In this document: positions 1 through 10,614 of the stretch, one piece after another
Position numbering within the stretch: position 1 is the stretch's first letter
Layout: the number at the start of each line of letters is the position of its first letter
Assembly (NCBI GenBank): GCA_964016885.1
Contig: OZ024748.1
Coordinates: forward strand, 30,876,001 to 30,940,000
Length of the DNA: 64,000 bases
Direction of reading: 5' to 3'
Source of the DNA: Eledone cirrhosa
Taxonomy: Eukaryota
Program-made: the position numbers and the translations under genes
Notes under the pieces: model-generated
Database searches by the model: none
What the model saw: only the letters and a program-made list of their open reading frames with translations
Told to the model about the DNA's origin: nothing

Positions 1-365
1 CAAGTAAAAAACGGGGCACGGAAATAAAAACGGACCCCATAAAAAAACGGGGCACCAAAATAAAAAACGGGGCACCCAAATAAAAAAACGGGGCACCCAA
101 ATAAAAAACGGGGCACCCAAATCAATAACTGACACGCCCATAAAAAATGGGGCACCCAAATAAAGAAACGGGGCACCCAAATAAAAAAAGCGCCCCCCAC
201 ATAAAAAAACGGGGCACCCAAATAAAAATACGGGTCACCCAAATAAAAAGGAGGCACCCAAATAAAAAACGGGGCACCCCCCAAAAAAACGTACACCCCC
301 TTAAAAAAACGGGGCATACAAATAAAAAACGGGGCACCCAAATAAAAAAACGGGGCACCCAAATC
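1..365. repeat. Minisatellite, ~20-22 bp unit AAATAAAAAACGGGGCACCC (about 17 degenerate copies; truncated by the window start)
   Basis: Repeated aaataaaaaa(a)cggggcaccc with variable A-run length, read directly. Confidence 0.95.
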
Positions 366-677
366 AAAAATTATAATATAATATAATATAATATTATATT
401 ATATTAAAAACAAATAACGAAACGAAATTAAATTTCGCTTCGTTTGTAACTCACTTTTGTATGACTGACGCTTAAACAATTAAGTTAAAAATGTACATCT
501 ACATATGCATACTGAAATACTAGTGTGTATATGAATACACACACGTATACATATGTAGGTGTACCAAGTCTTTCACTGGTCGCTTTACAGTGAGCGGCCC
601 AGCTATTCTGTATGTAAACACACAGACAAACCGGTTTTTAGAGTCATACTGGTTTTTCGGGGGAACACCTTCCCCCT

Positions 678-773
678 ATTCTCCAGAAAGCCAGACAAGG
701 AATATTGAACTAGTTTCGTTGTTGTTACAACTCATCAGCAATATTTACCTATCTACCGGCCTTTCTGGAGAAT
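678..773 (-). ncRNA. Type I hammerhead ribozyme, intact core, minimal palindromic stem III
   Basis: The - strand of 701-745 reads AAUAUUG-CUGAUGA-GUUG-UAACAA-CAAC-GAAA-C-UA-G-U-U-CAAUAUU: 7-bp stem I, CUGAUGA box, 4-bp stem II with a 6-nt loop, GAAA box, C-G closed stem III, NUH = GUU, predicted cut between 708 and 707. Stem I extends through bulges to a 13-bp AUUCUCCAGAAAG/CUUUCUGGAGAAU helix. Confidence 0.88.
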
Positions 774-979
774 TGTAAAAGCACATATCGTTATATGCTT
801 TTTCTACGTGTGTGTATTCATATACACACTAGTATTTCAGTATGCATATGTAGATGTACATTTTTAACTTAATTGTTTAAGCGTCAGTCATACAAAAGTG
901 AGTTACAAACGAAGCGAAATTTAATTTCGTTTCGTTATTTGTTTTTATCGTCTCCGCTGAACCGGTGCGTACTCACACT

Positions 980-1016
980 CTATGCAAATTAGTCTGCCCA
1001 CTACTAATTTTCATAG
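980..1016 (+). promoter_or_regulatory. Octamer motif ATGCAAAT (982-989) inside a 14-bp imperfect hairpin
   Basis: ctatgcaaattagt (980-993) pairs with actaattttcatag (1003-1016) with one mismatch. Function is unproven. Confidence 0.3.
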
Positions 1017-1046
1017 AAAAAGCATATAACGATATGTGCTTTTACA

Positions 1047-1142
1047 ATTCTCCAGAAAGGCCGGTAGATAGGTAAATATTGCTGATGAGTTGTAACAACA
1101 ACGAAACTACTTCAATATTCCTTGTCTGGCTTTCTGGAGAAT
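1047..1142 (+). ncRNA. Type I hammerhead ribozyme, second copy with a stem III G>C change (possibly impaired)
   Basis: 1075-1119: aatattg ctgatga gttg taacaa caac gaaa ctac tt caatatt. Identical to the other copy except C at 1110 where the other has G. Confidence 0.8.
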
Positions 1143-1372
1143 AGGGGGAAGGTGTTCCCCCGAAAAACCAGTATGACTCTAAAAACCGGTTTGTCTGTGT
1201 GTTACATACAGAATAGCTGGGCCGCTCACTGTAAAGCGACCAGTGAAAGACTTGGTACACCTACATATGTATACGTGTGTGTATTCATATACACACTAGT
1301 ATTTCAGTATGCATATGTAGATGTACATTTTTAACTTAATTATTATATTATATTATATTATATAATAATATA

Positions 1373-1561
1373 GGCGGTGGATTGGCAGTATTGGTAGAGT
1401 GTCGGATGCCATGCTTTGGCGCATAGAGTTACGGCCCTTGCCATTCTGAGTTCAAATCCCACCGAGGTTAACTTTGCCTTTCATCCTTACGGGGTCGTTA
1501 AAATAAAGTACCAGTAATACACTGGATATTTGCTGGCCTTGTGCCTAACGTAGAAACAATT
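1373..1561 (+). mobile_element. tRNA-derived SINE with Nin-like core, resembling Octopus SINE families
   Basis: GGCGG start, A-box-like TGGCAGTATTGG (1383-1394), B box GTTCAAATC (1450-1458), core aactttgcctttcatccttacggggtcgttaaaataaagtaccag, 3' ggccttgtgcc...tagaaa and an AT-microsatellite tail. Family recognised from memory, not from a search. Confidence 0.85.
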
Positions 1562-2756: not shown

Positions 2757-5740
2757 TGGGTTAGGGTCAGAGTTAGGGTTAGTGTTAGTGTTAGGGTTAG
2801 GTTTAGGTTTAGGGTTAGGGTCAGGGTTGGGCTTAAAGCTGGGGTTAGAGTTAGGTTTAGGGTTAGGGTTAGGGTTAGGGTTGGGGTTAGGGTTAGGGTT
2901 AGGGTTGGGGTTAGGATTAGGGTTTGGGTTAGTGTTAGGGTGAGGGTTTGGGTTAGGGTTAGAGTTAGGGATAGTGTTATTGTTAGGGTTAGGTTTAAGG
3001 TTAGGGTCAGGTTTTGGGTTAGGGTTAGGGTTGGGGTTGGGGTTGGAGTTGGGGTTAGTGTTGGGGTTGGAGTTAGGGTTAGTGTTTCGGTCAATTTTAG
3101 GCTTGGGGTTTGGGTTAGGGTTAGGGTTAGGGTTAGGATTTGGGTTAGTCTTAGGGTTGGGGTTAGTGATAGGGTTAGGGTTAGGGTTTCGGTTTGTGTT
3201 AGGGTTAGGGTAAGGTTTTAGGATTTGGGTTAGTGTTAGGGTTGGGGTTAGTGATAGTGTTAGGGTTAGGGTTAGGTTTTGGGTTAGGGTTAGGGTTAGG
3301 GTTAGTGTTTTGGTTTGGGTTAGGGTTAGGGCTAGGGTTTTGGTTTGGGTTAGGGTTAGGGTTAGGTTTAGGATTAGGATTTGGTTTGGGGTTAGGGTTA
3401 GGGTTAGGGTTAGGATTTGAGTTAGTGTTATGGTTGGGGTTAGTGATAGGGTTAGTGTTAGGGTTTGGGTTAGTGTTAGGGTTTGGGTTTGTGTTTGGGT
3501 TAGGGTTATGTTTAGGGTTAATGTTTATGTTAGTGTTAGGTTAAGGATTAGGGTTACGGTTAGGGTTAGGTGTAGGTTTAGTATTCGTGTTTGAGTAAGG
3601 GTTAAGTTAGGGTTTGGGTTTGGGTTAGGGGTAGGTTTAGGGTTAGGGTTTGGGTTAGAATTAGGGGTAGGCTTACGGTTACGGTTAGGGTTAGGGTTAG
3701 GGTTGGGGTTAGGGTTAGGGTTAGGGTTAGGGGTAGGGTTACGGTTACGGTTAGGGTTAGGGTTAGGGTTGGGGTTAGGGTTAGGTTTGGGGTTCCAGTT
3801 AAGATTTGGGTTAGTGTTAGTGTTAGGGTTAAAGTTAGGATTAGGGTTAGGGTTAGGTTTGGGGTTGGGGTTGGGGTTGGGGTTGGGTTGGAGTTGGGGT
3901 TAGTGTTGGGGTTGGAGTTAGGGTTAGTGTTACGGTTAGTGTTAGGTTTGGGGTTTGGATTAAGGGTAGGGTTAGGGTTAGGATTTGGGTTAGTGTTAGG
4001 ATAGGGGTTAGGGTTTGGGTTTGTGTTAGGGTTAGGGTTTGGGTTAGGGTTAGCGTTAGGGTTAGGGTTAGGGTTAGGGTTAGGGTAAGGGTTTTGGTTT
4101 GGGTTAGGGTTAGGGTTAGGTTTAGGATTAGGATTTGGTTTGGGGTTAGTGTTAGGGTTAGGGTTAGTGATAGAGTTAAGGTTAGGGTTAGGGTTTGGGT
4201 TAGTGTTAGGGTTGGGGTTAGTGATAGAGTTAAGGCTAGGGTTAGGGTTTTGGTTAGTGTTAGGGTTTGGGTTTGTGTTTGGGTTAGGGTTATGTTTAGG
4301 GTTAATGTTTATGTTAAGGAGTAGGGTTAGGGTTAGGGTTAGGTGTAGGTTTAGTGTTCGTGTTTGAGTGAGGGTTAAGTTAAGGTTTGGGTTTGGGTTA
4401 GGGGTAGGTTTAGGGTTAGGGTTTGGGTTAGGGTTAGGCGTAGGCTTAGGGTTGGTGTGAGGGGTAGGGTTAGGTTTGGGGTTCCGGTTAAGATTTGGGT
4501 TAGTGTTAGTGTTAGGGTTAAAGTTAGGATTAGGGTTAGGGTAAGGTTTGGGGTTGGGGTTGGGGTTGGGGTTGGGGTTGGGGTTGGGTTGGAGTTGGGG
4601 TTAGTGTTGGGGTTGGAGTTAGGGTTAGTGTTACGGTCAGTGTTAGGTTTGGGGTTTGGATTAGGGGTAGGGTTAGGGTTAGGATTTGGGTTAGTGTTAG
4701 GGTAGGGGTTAGGGTTTGGGTTTGTGTTAGGGTTTGGGTTTGGGTTAGGTTTAGGGTTAGGGTTAGGGTTAGCGTTAGGGTTAGGGTTAGGTTTAGGGTT
4801 GGGGTTAAAGCTGGGGTTAGAGTTAGGTTTAGGGTTTGGGTTTGTGTTAGGGTTAGGGTTGGGGTTAGGGTTAGGGTTAGGGTTGGGGTTAGGGTTAGAG
4901 TTAGCGTTAGGTTTGGGGTTAGGGTTAGGTTTGGGGTTAGGGTTAGGTTTGTGTTAGGGTTAGGGTTAGGTTTTGGGTTAAGGTTAGGGTTAAGTTTTGG
5001 GTTAGCGTTAGCGTTAGAGTTAGAGTTAGGGTTTGGGTTAGGGTTTGAGTTAGGTTTAGAGTTACGGTTAGGGTTAGGGTTTGGGTTAGGGTCAGGGTTA
5101 GGGTTAGTGTTAGGTTTAGGGTTAGGGTTTGGATTAGGGTTTGGATTAGGGTTAGGGTAAGGGTTAGGGTAAGGGTTTTGGTTTTGGTTAAGGTTAGGGT
5201 TAGGTTTAGGATTAGGGTCTGGTTTTGGGTTAGGGTTAGGGTTAGGGTTAGGGTTTGGGTTTGGTTTAGTTTTAGGGTTAGGGATAAGGTTTGGGTTTGG
5301 GTTAGGGTTAAGATTAGGGTTTGGGTTAGGGTTAGAGTTAGGGTTAGGGTTAGGTTAGGATTTGGGTTAGTGTTAGGGTTGGGGTTAGTGATAGGTTTAA
5401 GGTTAGGGTTAGGGTTTGGGTTAGTGTTCGGGTTTAGGTTTTGGTTTGGGTTTGGTTATGTTTAGGGTTAATGTTATGTTTAGGATTAGGGTTAGGTTTA
5501 GGGTTTGTGTTAAGGTTTGGGTTTGTGTTTGGGTTAGGCTTAAGTTAGGGTTTGGGTGTGGGTTAGAGTTAGGGTTAGGGTTAGGGTTTGGGTTAGGATT
5601 AGCGTTAGGGTTAGGGTTGGTGTTGAGGTTAGGGTTAGGTTTAGGGTTAAAGTTGGCGTTAGGGTTAGGGTTAGGGATAGGATTTCGGTTTGGGTTAGTA
5701 TTAGGGTTTGAGTATGGGCTTGGGTTAGTGATAGGGTTAA
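2757..5740 (+). repeat. Degenerate interstitial telomeric array (TTAGGG)n with TTGGGG, TTTGGG, TTAGTG, TTAGGT and other variants
   Basis: About 3 kb in 6-bp phase dominated by TTAGGG; perfect runs are short; non-telomeric sequence lies on both sides. Confidence 0.95.
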
Positions 5741-5963: not shown

Positions 5964-6002
<39 letters not shown>

Positions 6003-6032
6003 ATTTAATTTAATTTAATTTAATTAATTTAA

Positions 6033-6500
6033 TACCCGGAAATAACCGGAAATACACAGAAACACCGGAAATAGCCCACTGCGCACTGCGCATGCGAAAA
6101 GGTTGGACAGCACTGCGCATGCGCTAAGGTTGGACCGTAGTGCGCAGGCGCGAAGGTGTGACCGTAGTACGCATGCGCGAAGGTCGGACCGCCCAACGCA
6201 TGGGCGAAGGATGGACAGCACTGCGCATGCGCTAAGGCTGGGCTATAGTACGCATGCGCGAAAGTCGGACCGTAGTGCGCATGCGCTAAGGTTGGACCGT
6301 ACTGCGCATGCGCAGGGCGGTCCACCCTTCGCGCACTCGAGGTAGGTCCAACCTTCGCGCATGCGCATTACGGTCCATCCTCGAAACCAGTTTCGTTTCG
6401 TTTGAATTTGTAGGTTCCCCGGTTTCGTCTCGTTTCGGTGTTTCAGGTTCCCCGGTTTCGTTTCGTTTGGTTTTTTAGATACACCGGTTTCGTTTCGTTT
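6033..6500. repeat. Module M1: (CCGGAAATA)-like head, 27-bp TGCGCATGCGC repeats with internal inversion, ~31-bp GGTTTCGTTTCG tail repeats
   Basis: ggttggac recurs at 6101 and 6128 (27 bp); orientation flips at actgcgcatgcgcag 6301-6315. Confidence 0.85.
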
Positions 6501-8214: not shown

Positions 8215-8601
8215 AAAAACGAAACGAAACCGGGGAACCTAAAAAACCCCAGGAAACGAAACCGGGGAATCTAAAGAACCAAACGAAATGAAACCGGGGT
8301 ACCTAAAAAACCGAAAAGAGACGGAACCGGGGAACCTAAAAATCCAAACGAAACGAAACTGCTTTCCAGGTTGGAACGTAGTGCGCATGCGCGAAGGTTG
8401 TACAGCACTGCGCATGCGCAGTACGGTCCAACCTTAGCGCATGGGCACTACGGTCCAACCTTCGCGCATGCGCACTACGGTTCTATCTCGAAACCAGTTT
8501 CGTTTCGTTCGGTTTTTTAGGTTCACCGGTTTAGTCTCATTTCGGTCTTTTAGGTTTCCCGGTTTCGTTTGGTTTTTTAGGTACCCCGGTTTCGTTTCGT
8601 C
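8215..8601. repeat. Module P2: imperfect fold-back (tail-27mers-tail), MITE/foldback-like
   Basis: Left arm aaacgaaacgaaaccggggaacctaaaaaacc mirrors right arm ggttttttaggtaccccggtttcgtttcgt; pivot is the perfect 16-bp palindrome ACTGCGCATGCGCAGT at 8407-8422; flanks are (TTTAA)n and (TTAAA)n. Confidence 0.8.
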
Positions 8602-8643
8602 TTTTAAATTAAATTAAATTAAATTAAATTAAATAAAATTAAA

Positions 8644-8892
8644 TAACCGGATATACCCGGAAATAGCCCACTGCGCACTGCGCATGCGCCAAGGTTGGAC
8701 AGCACTACGCATACGCTAAGGTTGGACCATAGTGAGCATGTGCGAAGGTTGGACCGTAATGCGCATACGCTAAGGTTGGACCTACTGCGCATGGGCAGTG
8801 CTGTGCAAACTTGGCACATGCCCAGTGCCGTCCAACCTTCGTGCATGCGCCGTACGCTCCAACCTTCAAGCATGCGCACTACGGTCCAACGT
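8644..8892. repeat. Module M3: head plus 27-bp repeats, tail absent
   Basis: ccggaaatagcccactgcgcactgcgcatgcg start as in M1; flips near 8784-8799. Confidence 0.82.
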
Positions 8893-9135: not shown

Positions 9136-9651
9136 ACTACCCGGAAATAACAGGGAAATACCCGGAAATACCCGGAAACACCCGGAAATATTCCACTGCG
9201 CACTGCGCATGCGCCAAGGTTGGACAGCACTGCGCATGCGCTAAGGTTGGACCGTAGTGCGCATGCGAGAAGGTCGTACCGTACTGCGCATGCGCGAAGA
9301 TCGGACCGCACAGCGCATGCACGAAGGTTGGACAGCACTGCGCACGCGCTAAGGTTGGACTATAGGGCGCATGCGCGAAGGTTGGAATGTAGTGCGCATG
9401 CGCTAAGGTTGGACCGTACTGCGCATGCGAAGTGCTATTCCAAACTTGGCGCATGCGGCGCAGTGCCGCCCAACCTTCGTGCATGCGCGATACGGTCCAA
9501 CCTTCGCGCATGCGCACTACGGTCCAACCTCGAAACCAGTTTCGTGTCATTTGGTTTTTTGAGGTTACCTGGTTTCATCTAGTTTCGGTTTTCTAGGATC
9601 CCTGGTTTCGTTTCGTTTGGTTTTTTAGGTACCCCGGTTTCGTTTCGTTTC
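9136..9651. repeat. Module M4: complete head-27mer-tail copy
   Basis: Same order as M1; flips near 9418-9433; tail starts cctcgaaaccagtttcg. Confidence 0.85.
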
Positions 9652-10250: not shown

Positions 10251-10315
10251 AATAAATTTAATTAATTAATTAATTAGTTAATTTAATTAATTAAATTTAA
10301 TTTAATTTAATTTAA

Positions 10316-10614
10316 TACTCGGCAATAACCGGAAATACCCGGAAACACCCGGAAATATTCCACTGCGCACTGCGCATGCGCCAAGGCTGAACAGTACTGC
10401 GCATGCGCTAAGGTTGGACCGTAGTGCGTTGCGCGGAGGTCGGACCGTACTGCGCATGCGCGAAGATCGGACCGCACAGCGCATGCGCGAAGGTTGGACA
10501 GCACTGCGCATGCGCGAATGTCAGACCATAGTGCGCATGCGCTAAGGTTGGACCGTACTGCGCATGCGCACTGCTGTCCAAACTTAGCGCATGCGCACTA
10601 CGGTCCAACCTTAG
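10316..10614. repeat. Module M5: head plus 27-bp repeats, fused directly to the 32-bp satellite
   Basis: Flips at 10557-10572; ends cggtccaaccttag|acttaaacc. Confidence 0.85.

What the first reader, a model, noticed from the sequence alone, without database searches (positions are those of the whole stretch)
678..773. Intact type I hammerhead ribozyme hidden in the only complex sequence of the window
Seen: the - strand has CUGAUGA and GAAA boxes in correct spacing, with a 7-bp stem I, a 4-bp stem II and a bulged stem I extension. Stem III is minimal and self-complementary (AACUAGUU). Established: minimal type I hammerheads with palindromic stem III occur in Penelope-like elements and metazoan non-LTR retrozymes and can cleave as dimers. 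Inference: this is a self-cleaving RNA; the GUU triplet is less usual than GUC/GUA, and the stem I bulge may dock on the UAACAA loop II.
Basis: partly seen in the sequence, partly recalled or inferred. Interest (0 to 1): 0.9.

Follow-up and report, generated by a model that had tools for sequence, protein, structure and literature searches.

The report
Hammerhead retrozyme with U6-type promoter
This predicted self-cutting RNA is one copy of a young 468-base jumping repeat with hundreds of near-identical copies in this animal genome, a new member of a known class (retrozymes) that likely spreads with enzymes borrowed from Penelope-type transposons and likely carries its own U6-type promoter.

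Summary
Confirmed. A type I hammerhead lies on the minus strand at 678-773 (predicted cut 708/707). It is the canonical kind, not the minimal one, and it is not alone: a second copy with a broken stem III lies at 1047-1142 (+). Both belong to a 468-bp non-coding repeat (at least 867 candidates in the genome, about 99% identical): an animal non-LTR retrozyme. Six helix pairs change on both sides against a sister family. Three extras: (1) of 29 head-to-head insertions with canonical ends, 28 have one long and one short 3' end, the Penelope 'tail'; (2) one insertion is fused to the 3' end of a young RT/GIY-YIG Penelope-like family, naming a candidate helper; (3) both families keep a 12-mer that matches the -78 element of the host's U6, U6atac and RNase MRP genes, though 4-5 nt closer to the TATA box. 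Cleavage, transcription and circles are untested; no RNA run was listed. The window's copy is probably a dead end. The scan noted these families and the octamer before on other pieces of this genome. New member of a known kind; interest 0.45.

The parts
678..773 (-). Canonical type I hammerhead with its long closing stem; core C3 at 738, U17 at 708, predicted cut between 708 and 707
   Evidence: sequence, Rfam HH9 38.6 bits, fold z -5.0, covariation with sister family
405..806 (-). Left arm of the insertion: retrozyme unit positions 1-402, ending at the long 3' end (405); lacks the upstream 12-mer
805..1344 (+). Right arm: unit positions 260-468 then 1-332, ending at the short 3' end (1344)
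1047..1142 (+). Second hammerhead copy; G16.2 replaced by C at 1110, which breaks stem III and the palindrome; change private to this copy
   Evidence: 1 of 87 cores; G in the three runs covering it
981..992 (+). 12-mer TATGCAAATTAG matching the -78 element of host U6, U6atac and RNase MRP genes; identical in the sister family; also the 5' arm of an RNA hairpin
1025..1029 (+). TATA-like box, 43 nt after the octamer start (46-48 in host Pol III genes); predicted start G1055-G1059 (inferred)
878..947 (+). 'Tail' between the two preferred 3' ends (unit 334-403), also present at 405-474 on the minus strand
1144..1161 (+). 7-bp hairpin 3' of the ribozyme with two compensatory G-C to A-U changes in contigs of other runs
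361..404 (.). AT-rich (TATAA)n target repeat, left flank
1345..1372 (.). AT-rich (ATTAT)n target repeat, right flank

Best explanation
The motif is a canonical type I hammerhead inside a 468-bp non-coding repeat that forms tandem and head-to-head insertions in AT-rich microsatellites, an animal non-LTR retrozyme that is likely copied by a Penelope-like (Neptune-type) reverse transcriptase/GIY-YIG protein. Shown: the fold, the unit, the copy number, the insertion layout and ends. Inferred: a U6-type element ahead of each ribozyme starts transcription just 5' of stem I; read-through gives multimers; paired hammerheads cut slowly (GUU site, 2-bp stem III) to release a cut-to-cut monomer that can be ligated to a circle and carries the next unit's promoter inside it; the helper protein nicks both strands of an AT-rich target and starts cDNA inside the RNA, once at unit 403 and once at unit 329-335, and the two cDNAs meet head to head. 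The window's insertion is probably a dead end: its intact ribozyme has lost the upstream element and its promoter-bearing arm has a broken stem III.
For: At least 867 and 981 candidates, 40 of 40 scored 100% identical. 468-bp period, up to about 7 units; 15 of 42 insertions hold two same-strand ribozymes one unit apart. 31 of 42 insertions are head to head; 28 of the 29 with two canonical ends have one long and one short end (binomial 5.6e-8). This is the tail described for PLEs (PMC8557442) and explained by two internal RT start sites (PMC11167929). A sister family (429 bp, 59% aligned identity) has the same layout with ends at 324 and 375. 6 of 15 pairs change on both sides, 93% of cells pair, slid controls 27-51%. 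Monomer folds at z -12. L193 joins the array directly to a 241-nt end 98-99% identical to RT/GIY-YIG elements L076 and L080. The 12-mer scores 18.7 bits on a matrix of 5 host Pol III promoters, 0 of 500 shuffles, in both families; best score in 8 U1/U2 upstream regions 10.0.
Against: No cleavage, transcript or circle was observed. No arm among 42 insertions starts at the cut site (unit 100), so cut linear RNA is not seen as a template. Li et al. found cleavage in 1 of 9 Xenopus dimers and Frangieh et al. found the ribozyme dispensable for insertion in vitro. The element-to-TATA spacing is 42-43 nt against 46-48 in host genes, and the unit has T5 runs at 316 and 397 that Pol III would have to read through; a test for T-run avoidance was not significant (727 and 1297 of 5000 shuffles). 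The helper link rests on one chimera, in which both ends are long ends. No autonomous element sharing the unit was seen. The covariation count rests on six sequences from two families.
Confidence: 0.82

Rival explanations
1. Same element, but the ribozyme is nearly dormant: uncut multimeric RNA is the template and the fold serves mainly as a protein-binding or folding signal.
For: GUU site in 80 of 87 cores and in the sister family; in the dimer U17 pairs with A14, which from recalled knowledge slows cleavage; no arm starts at the cut site; the monomer's lowest-energy fold misfolds the core; published negatives.
Against: Core, loop II and the stem I bulge are invariant between families while stems change in pairs; position 17, the one tolerant core site, is the variable one (5 GUC, 2 GUG). 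Rapid ligation to circles would also hide the cut site.
Confidence: 0.2
2. The 12-mer is not a promoter: it is kept as one arm of an RNA hairpin or as a POU-factor site, and the RNA comes from read-through of host transcription.
For: The block folds into a hairpin with an inverted copy in both families; spacing to TATA is 4-5 nt short; T runs oppose Pol III multimers; a TTGG variant exists (3 of 70 copies); earlier scan notes e1-9581706 and e1-9568511 read it this way.
Against: The 5' arm is 12 of 12 identical between families, as long as the best ribozyme block, while the 3' arm differs at 3 of 12 and mispairs at a different place in each family. The motif sits at -77 to -79 in 5 host Pol III genes. 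In 761 kb of fetched loci its 224 matches fell in the two families or at those promoters, but for one.
Confidence: 0.4
3. The unit is the solo pseudo-LTR of an autonomous Penelope-like element not yet found, not an independent non-autonomous element.
For: All end features are those of PLEs; Xenopus retrozymes are related to pLTRs; only 50 GIY-YIG stretches of 10,596 candidates were fetched.
Against: None of 42 insertions runs from the unit into an ORF of its own; arrays of up to about 7 pure units exist; the GIY-YIG loci compared carry unrelated ends.
Confidence: 0.08
4. The arrays are satellite DNA amplified by recombination and the ribozyme is a relic.
For: Li et al. favour local amplification for some arrays.
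Against: Dispersed insertions with fixed 3' ends, variable 5' ends, inversions and AT-rich targets; strand-specific G-U and compensatory changes.
Confidence: 0.03

Closest known systems
Animal non-LTR retrozymes (Cervera and de la Pena 2020, PMC7229834; Li, Clavereau and Pollet 2026, bioRxiv 10.64898/2026.07.22.740005)
   Same: Non-coding tandem repeat, GC under 45%, one canonical type I hammerhead per unit, weak palindromic helix III, structured monomer, co-occurrence with PLEs.
   Different: 468 bp is above the 170-400 nt of the 2020 paper, within the 51-972 bp of the 2026 preprint; GUU site; expression and circles not shown here; in the parts I read neither paper reports fixed two-site ends, a chimera with a helper or a U6-type element.
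EN+ Penelope-like elements, Neptune-type (Craig et al. 2021, PMC8557442; Frangieh et al. 2024, PMC11167929)
   Same: Partial tandems, inverted 5'-truncated arm, tail at one end, AT-rich and microsatellite targets, internal cDNA starts, type I hammerhead.
   Different: No ORF; canonical rather than minimal ribozyme; tail 69-74 nt (51 in the sister family) against 30-40; the long/short pairing is nearly strict, whereas the in vitro work saw no strand difference in start sites.
Newt satellite 2 and schistosome hammerhead satellite
   Same: Hammerhead repeats with an internal promoter: snRNA-type with Pol II in newt, Pol III in schistosome (as cited in PMC2220036; originals not held).
   Different: Here the element matches the host's Pol III type 3 genes and not its U1/U2 genes; polymerase untested.
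Rfam Hammerhead_HH9 (RF02275)
   Same: Type I topology with bulged stem I and 6-nt loop II, full-length match.
   Different: 38.6 bits, below the cut-off of 52; helix III shorter; multi-copy mobile context.

Membership tests
Type I hammerhead ribozyme (canonical metazoan) | CUGANGA, GAAA and NUH core in order with helices I-III | tested here: met
Type I hammerhead ribozyme (canonical metazoan) | Helix I 6 bp, helix II 4 bp, helix III 1-2 bp with short palindromic loop (PMC4209133) | tested here: met
Type I hammerhead ribozyme (canonical metazoan) | Self-cleavage at H17 | not testable with these tools
   no RNA holder listed; needs bench assay
Rfam Hammerhead_HH9 | Gathering score 52 bits | tested here: not met
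   38.6 bits
Minimal PLE hammerhead (min-HHR) | Helix II 7-8 bp, helix I 4-5 bp, extra base before stem II | tested here: not met
   helix II 4 bp, helix I 6 bp, no extra base
Animal non-LTR retrozyme | Non-coding tandem unit of a few hundred bp with one type I hammerhead each | tested here: met
   468-bp unit; 15 of 42 insertions with tandem ribozymes
Animal non-LTR retrozyme | No LTR layout, low GC, dispersed high copy | tested here: met
Animal non-LTR retrozyme | Expressed as linear and circular monomers | not testable with these tools
   no RNA run listed
Animal non-LTR retrozyme | Target-site duplication | tested here: inconclusive
   flanks are microsatellites, duplications cannot be read
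Autonomous Penelope-like element | ORF with RT and GIY-YIG between pseudo-LTRs | tested here: not met
   no such ORF in the unit or joined to it
PLE-mobilised sequence | Inverted 5'-truncated arm, tail at one end, AT-rich target | tested here: met
   31 of 42 inverted; 28 of 29 long plus short
PLE-mobilised sequence | Identified helper | tested here: inconclusive
   one chimera, L193; no shared sequence with PLE ends
Pol III type 3 (U6-like) promoter | Host upstream element | tested here: met
   18.7 bits, 0 of 500 shuffles, both families
Pol III type 3 (U6-like) promoter | TATA box at the host spacing (46-48 nt) | tested here: not met
   43 and 42 nt
Pol III type 3 (U6-like) promoter | Transcription start and polymerase | not testable with these tools
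   needs 5' RACE and inhibitor tests

The most novel reading that the evidence does not exclude
A self-sufficient retrozyme cycle can be read from the DNA: the element has captured the host's U6-type upstream promoter and keeps it, though such promoters are normally lost on retrotransposition, because the hammerhead cuts the multimer into a permuted monomer that carries the next promoter inside; a named young Neptune-type family then inserts it by two cDNA starts, one long and one short, from the two ends of one break.
Probability: 0.35. Interest if true: 0.68.

Novelty: new member of a known kind. Interest (0 to 1): 0.45.

Why it matters
The ribozyme itself is ordinary: animal genomes hold thousands of such motifs. 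What this family adds bears on an open question. The 2020 and 2026 retrozyme papers propose PLEs as helpers from co-occurrence and relatedness and leave the mechanism open. Here the insertions carry the PLE two-start-site footprint almost without exception, one insertion joins the retrozyme to a specific PLE family, and a host promoter element is kept as tightly as the catalytic core. That gives a defined RNA, two predicted start sites, a candidate enzyme and a candidate promoter for direct tests.

Tried and rejected
RNA evidence: no RNA holder listed; no evidence either way. Rfam HH9 search of the genome scored 58 candidates and returned one unrelated locus: uninformative. Conservation among copies: core 0.34%, stem I 0.48%, stem II and loop 0.33%, 12-mer 0.56%, GAAA to N17 1.24% (8 of 11 changes at N17), whole unit 0.65%; biased by retrieval, not used. 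T-run avoidance as a sign of Pol III: not significant. Local alignment of the upstream region to whole U6 promoters was weak (2 to 215 of 300 shuffles); only the 12-mer carries the signal. U1/U2-type promoter: their TCAGT at about -57 has no counterpart at the right spacing. Cut site as an insertion end: none seen. Parent PLE by homology: none; the listing was cut at 6000 characters, best hits first, and showed only retrozyme copies and microsatellite matches. Genome search with the L193 PLE end returned nothing, not even itself, so its copy number is unknown. One structure evaluation used a mis-registered string and gave a meaningless energy; ignored. miRNA matches are far below cut-off and reflect the TA/CA hairpin. 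Three of six U6atac loci plus two in microsatellites lacked the element and look like pseudogenes; only L146 was used. Papers on newt and schistosome promoters were not held.

Full report
Observation. The minus strand of 678-773 carries a complete hammerhead core: CUGAUGA (738-732), a 4-bp stem II with loop UAACAA, GAAA (717-714), a 2-bp stem III closed by UA, the triplet GUU (710-708) and a predicted cut at 708/707. Rfam HH9 matches over its full length at 38.6 bits, E 1.4e-7, below its cut-off of 52. The stretch folds with z = -5.0, though its lowest-energy monomer fold mispairs the core. A second copy lies on the plus strand (core at 1082) with G16.2 changed to C. Helix sizes fit the canonical metazoan type I motif of PMC4209133 (passages), not its minimal PLE motif.

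The element. Self-comparison shows two arms pointing away from 805/806: 405-806 on the minus strand and 805-1344 on the plus strand, between AT-rich microsatellites. A genome search with 141 nt found 867 candidates, 40 of 40 scored 100% identical; a second fragment found 981; both are lower bounds. The loci define a 468-bp non-coding unit that forms tandem arrays; unit position 1 is window 806 (-) or 1014 (+), and the cut follows position 99. The cut-to-cut monomer folds with z = -12. Of 42 independent insertions, 31 are head to head and 11 run one way; 15 hold two same-strand ribozymes one unit apart. The window's insertion does not.

Insertion ends. Outer ends are 3' ends at two sites, unit 402-403 and unit 329-335. 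Of the 31 inverted insertions, 29 have both ends at these sites and 28 of them have one of each (binomial 5.6e-8); L185 has two short ends, L029 ends at 381 and L193 at 64. The 5' ends are scattered and none lies at the cut site. PMC8557442 (passages) describes this layout for PLEs, with a 30-40 bp tail often at one end only; PMC11167929 (parts 1-2 of 4) shows that the tail is the distance between two internal cDNA start sites, that both target strands are nicked and extended, and that the ribozyme is protein-assisted and not needed for insertion in vitro. I infer that the two ends of one break each prime cDNA, one at each site.

Sister family. A 429-bp family (3495 candidates, 94-95% identical to the query) shares the layout, with ends at 324 and 375, at 286 of 484 aligned positions identical. 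Its ribozyme keeps GAAACUAGUU, loop II UAAYAA and the AGG-UAN bulge but has other stems. On six sequences, 6 of 15 pairs change on both sides and 93% of cells pair, against 27-51% for slid partners; the base pair of stem II is open in the four sister sequences. With only two families this supports but does not prove the fold. Contigs of coded runs X3 and X6 show two compensatory G-C to A-U changes in the hairpin at 1144-1161, and X1 and X3 two changes that give G-U pairs on the sense strand. Two copies co-fold as a double hammerhead at -33.8 kcal/mol against twice -15.2; in that fold U17 also pairs with A14, which by recalled knowledge slows GUU sites. Position 17 is U in 80, C in 5 and G in 2 of 87 cores.

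Helper. The genome holds many GIY-YIG elements (10,596 candidates, 150 scored); fetched ones show RT, a CxxC linker and GIY-YIG, and end in (TA)n. I call them Neptune-type from the linker alone; no tree was built. None shared the unit (listing cut). In L193, one insertion bounded by (TA)n, three retrozyme units run without a spacer into a 14-nt fold-back and a 241-nt end that is 98-99% identical to the ends of L076 and L080, which encode GIY-YIG and (L080, weakly) RT and have their own two ends 34 nt apart. A template switch during one insertion is the simplest reading; insertion of one element beside the other with a deletion is not excluded, and this is one case.

Promoter-like block. The two longest identical blocks between the families are the ribozyme's GAAACTAGTTCA and TATGCAAATTAG (981-992), 12 nt each. 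The host's U6 genes at three loci, its best U6atac gene and its RNase MRP gene carry this motif at -77 to -79 with TATA at -30; 12 U1 and U2 loci do not. A matrix from the five promoters scores both families at 18.7 bits, 0 of 500 shuffles, and 17.9 bits without the identical U6 site. In 761 kb of fetched loci (overlapping ones included) the motif occurred 224 times, all in the two families or at those promoters but one. Predicted starts (G1055-G1059) lie just 5' of stem I. Against: spacing to the TATA-like box is 43 and 42 nt against 46-48, and insect data treat this spacing as tightly kept (PMC1761439, passages); T5 runs at units 316 and 397 would stop Pol III; T-run avoidance was not significant; the block is also a hairpin arm. 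The hairpin reading explains less, since only the 5' arm is fixed. I put a promoter role at about 55-60%, polymerase open. A precedent exists: newt satellite 2 has an snRNA-type promoter and the schistosome satellite a Pol III promoter, seen only as cited in PMC2220036.

This copy. The intact ribozyme's arm begins at unit 1 and lacks the 12-mer; the arm that has it carries the broken stem III; the two ribozymes face apart and cannot pair in one transcript. It is probably a dead end.

What is known. PMC7229834 (passages and Discussion; supplement unreadable, and it may list related species) defines non-LTR retrozymes and names PLEs as strong helper candidates. The 2026 preprint (parts 1-3 of 5) ties them to PLE pseudo-LTRs and found cleavage in 1 of 9 dimers. 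Searches listed no paper on this family or on a U6-type element in a retrozyme; the library lacks most subscription papers. The scan's earlier notes describe the same families and the octamer on other pieces of this genome and call the animal octopus-like, which I did not test. Two of them judged an snRNA-type promoter not shown or not supported; my comparison with the host's own Pol III genes disagrees in part.

Verdict. A real, canonical hammerhead in a new member of a known class. The ribozyme does not merit 0.9; the end rule, the chimera and the promoter match make the retrozyme life cycle testable. Interest 0.45.

Noticed in passing
window 1373-1560 and 1690-1800; also L063 end, L026 2150-2330, L120: Very common SINE-like repeat with A- and B-box-like motifs in AT microsatellites; ARAGORN finds no tRNA. 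One copy interrupts U6 promoters in L120 and L121.
   Followed up: no
window 6031-6500, 8217-8890, 9138-9650, 10314-10614: Blocks of 10-bp, 27-bp (with a TGCGCATGCGC palindrome) and 32-bp repeats in direct and inverted layout within (TTAAA)n; they share GAAACGAAAC runs with the retrozyme tail.
   Followed up: no
window 2758-5739 and 10610-63969: Interstitial (GGGTTA)n array and a 53-kb satellite of 26/32-bp units with telomere-like words.
   Followed up: no
L067, L068, L077, L078, 3' of the ORF: A Neptune-type family with a compact type I hammerhead, palindromic stem III and U at position 17.
   Followed up: partly
L064, L065, L069, L075, L076, L080, L081, L082, 3' of the ORF: PLE ends with a CCGGTA palindrome after a GAAA-like word but no CUGANGA upstream; earlier notes on rearranged hammerheads in this genome may bear on them. 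L075 versus L065/L069 shows a tail of about 62 nt.
   Followed up: no
L136-L143 and L126-L129, upstream 100 nt: U1 and U2 promoters share AATTA near -91, TCAGT near -57 and a TA-rich box near -32, unlike the Pol III genes.
   Followed up: partly
L031 1500-1580 (-): A separate hammerhead-like match (HH9 35.8 bits) with a long closing stem.
   Followed up: no
L074 5438-5657 and L181 (-): Older variants: a 90%-identical family 1 insertion, and a sister subfamily with CUGACGA, GUA site and a TTGG form of the 12-mer.
   Followed up: partly
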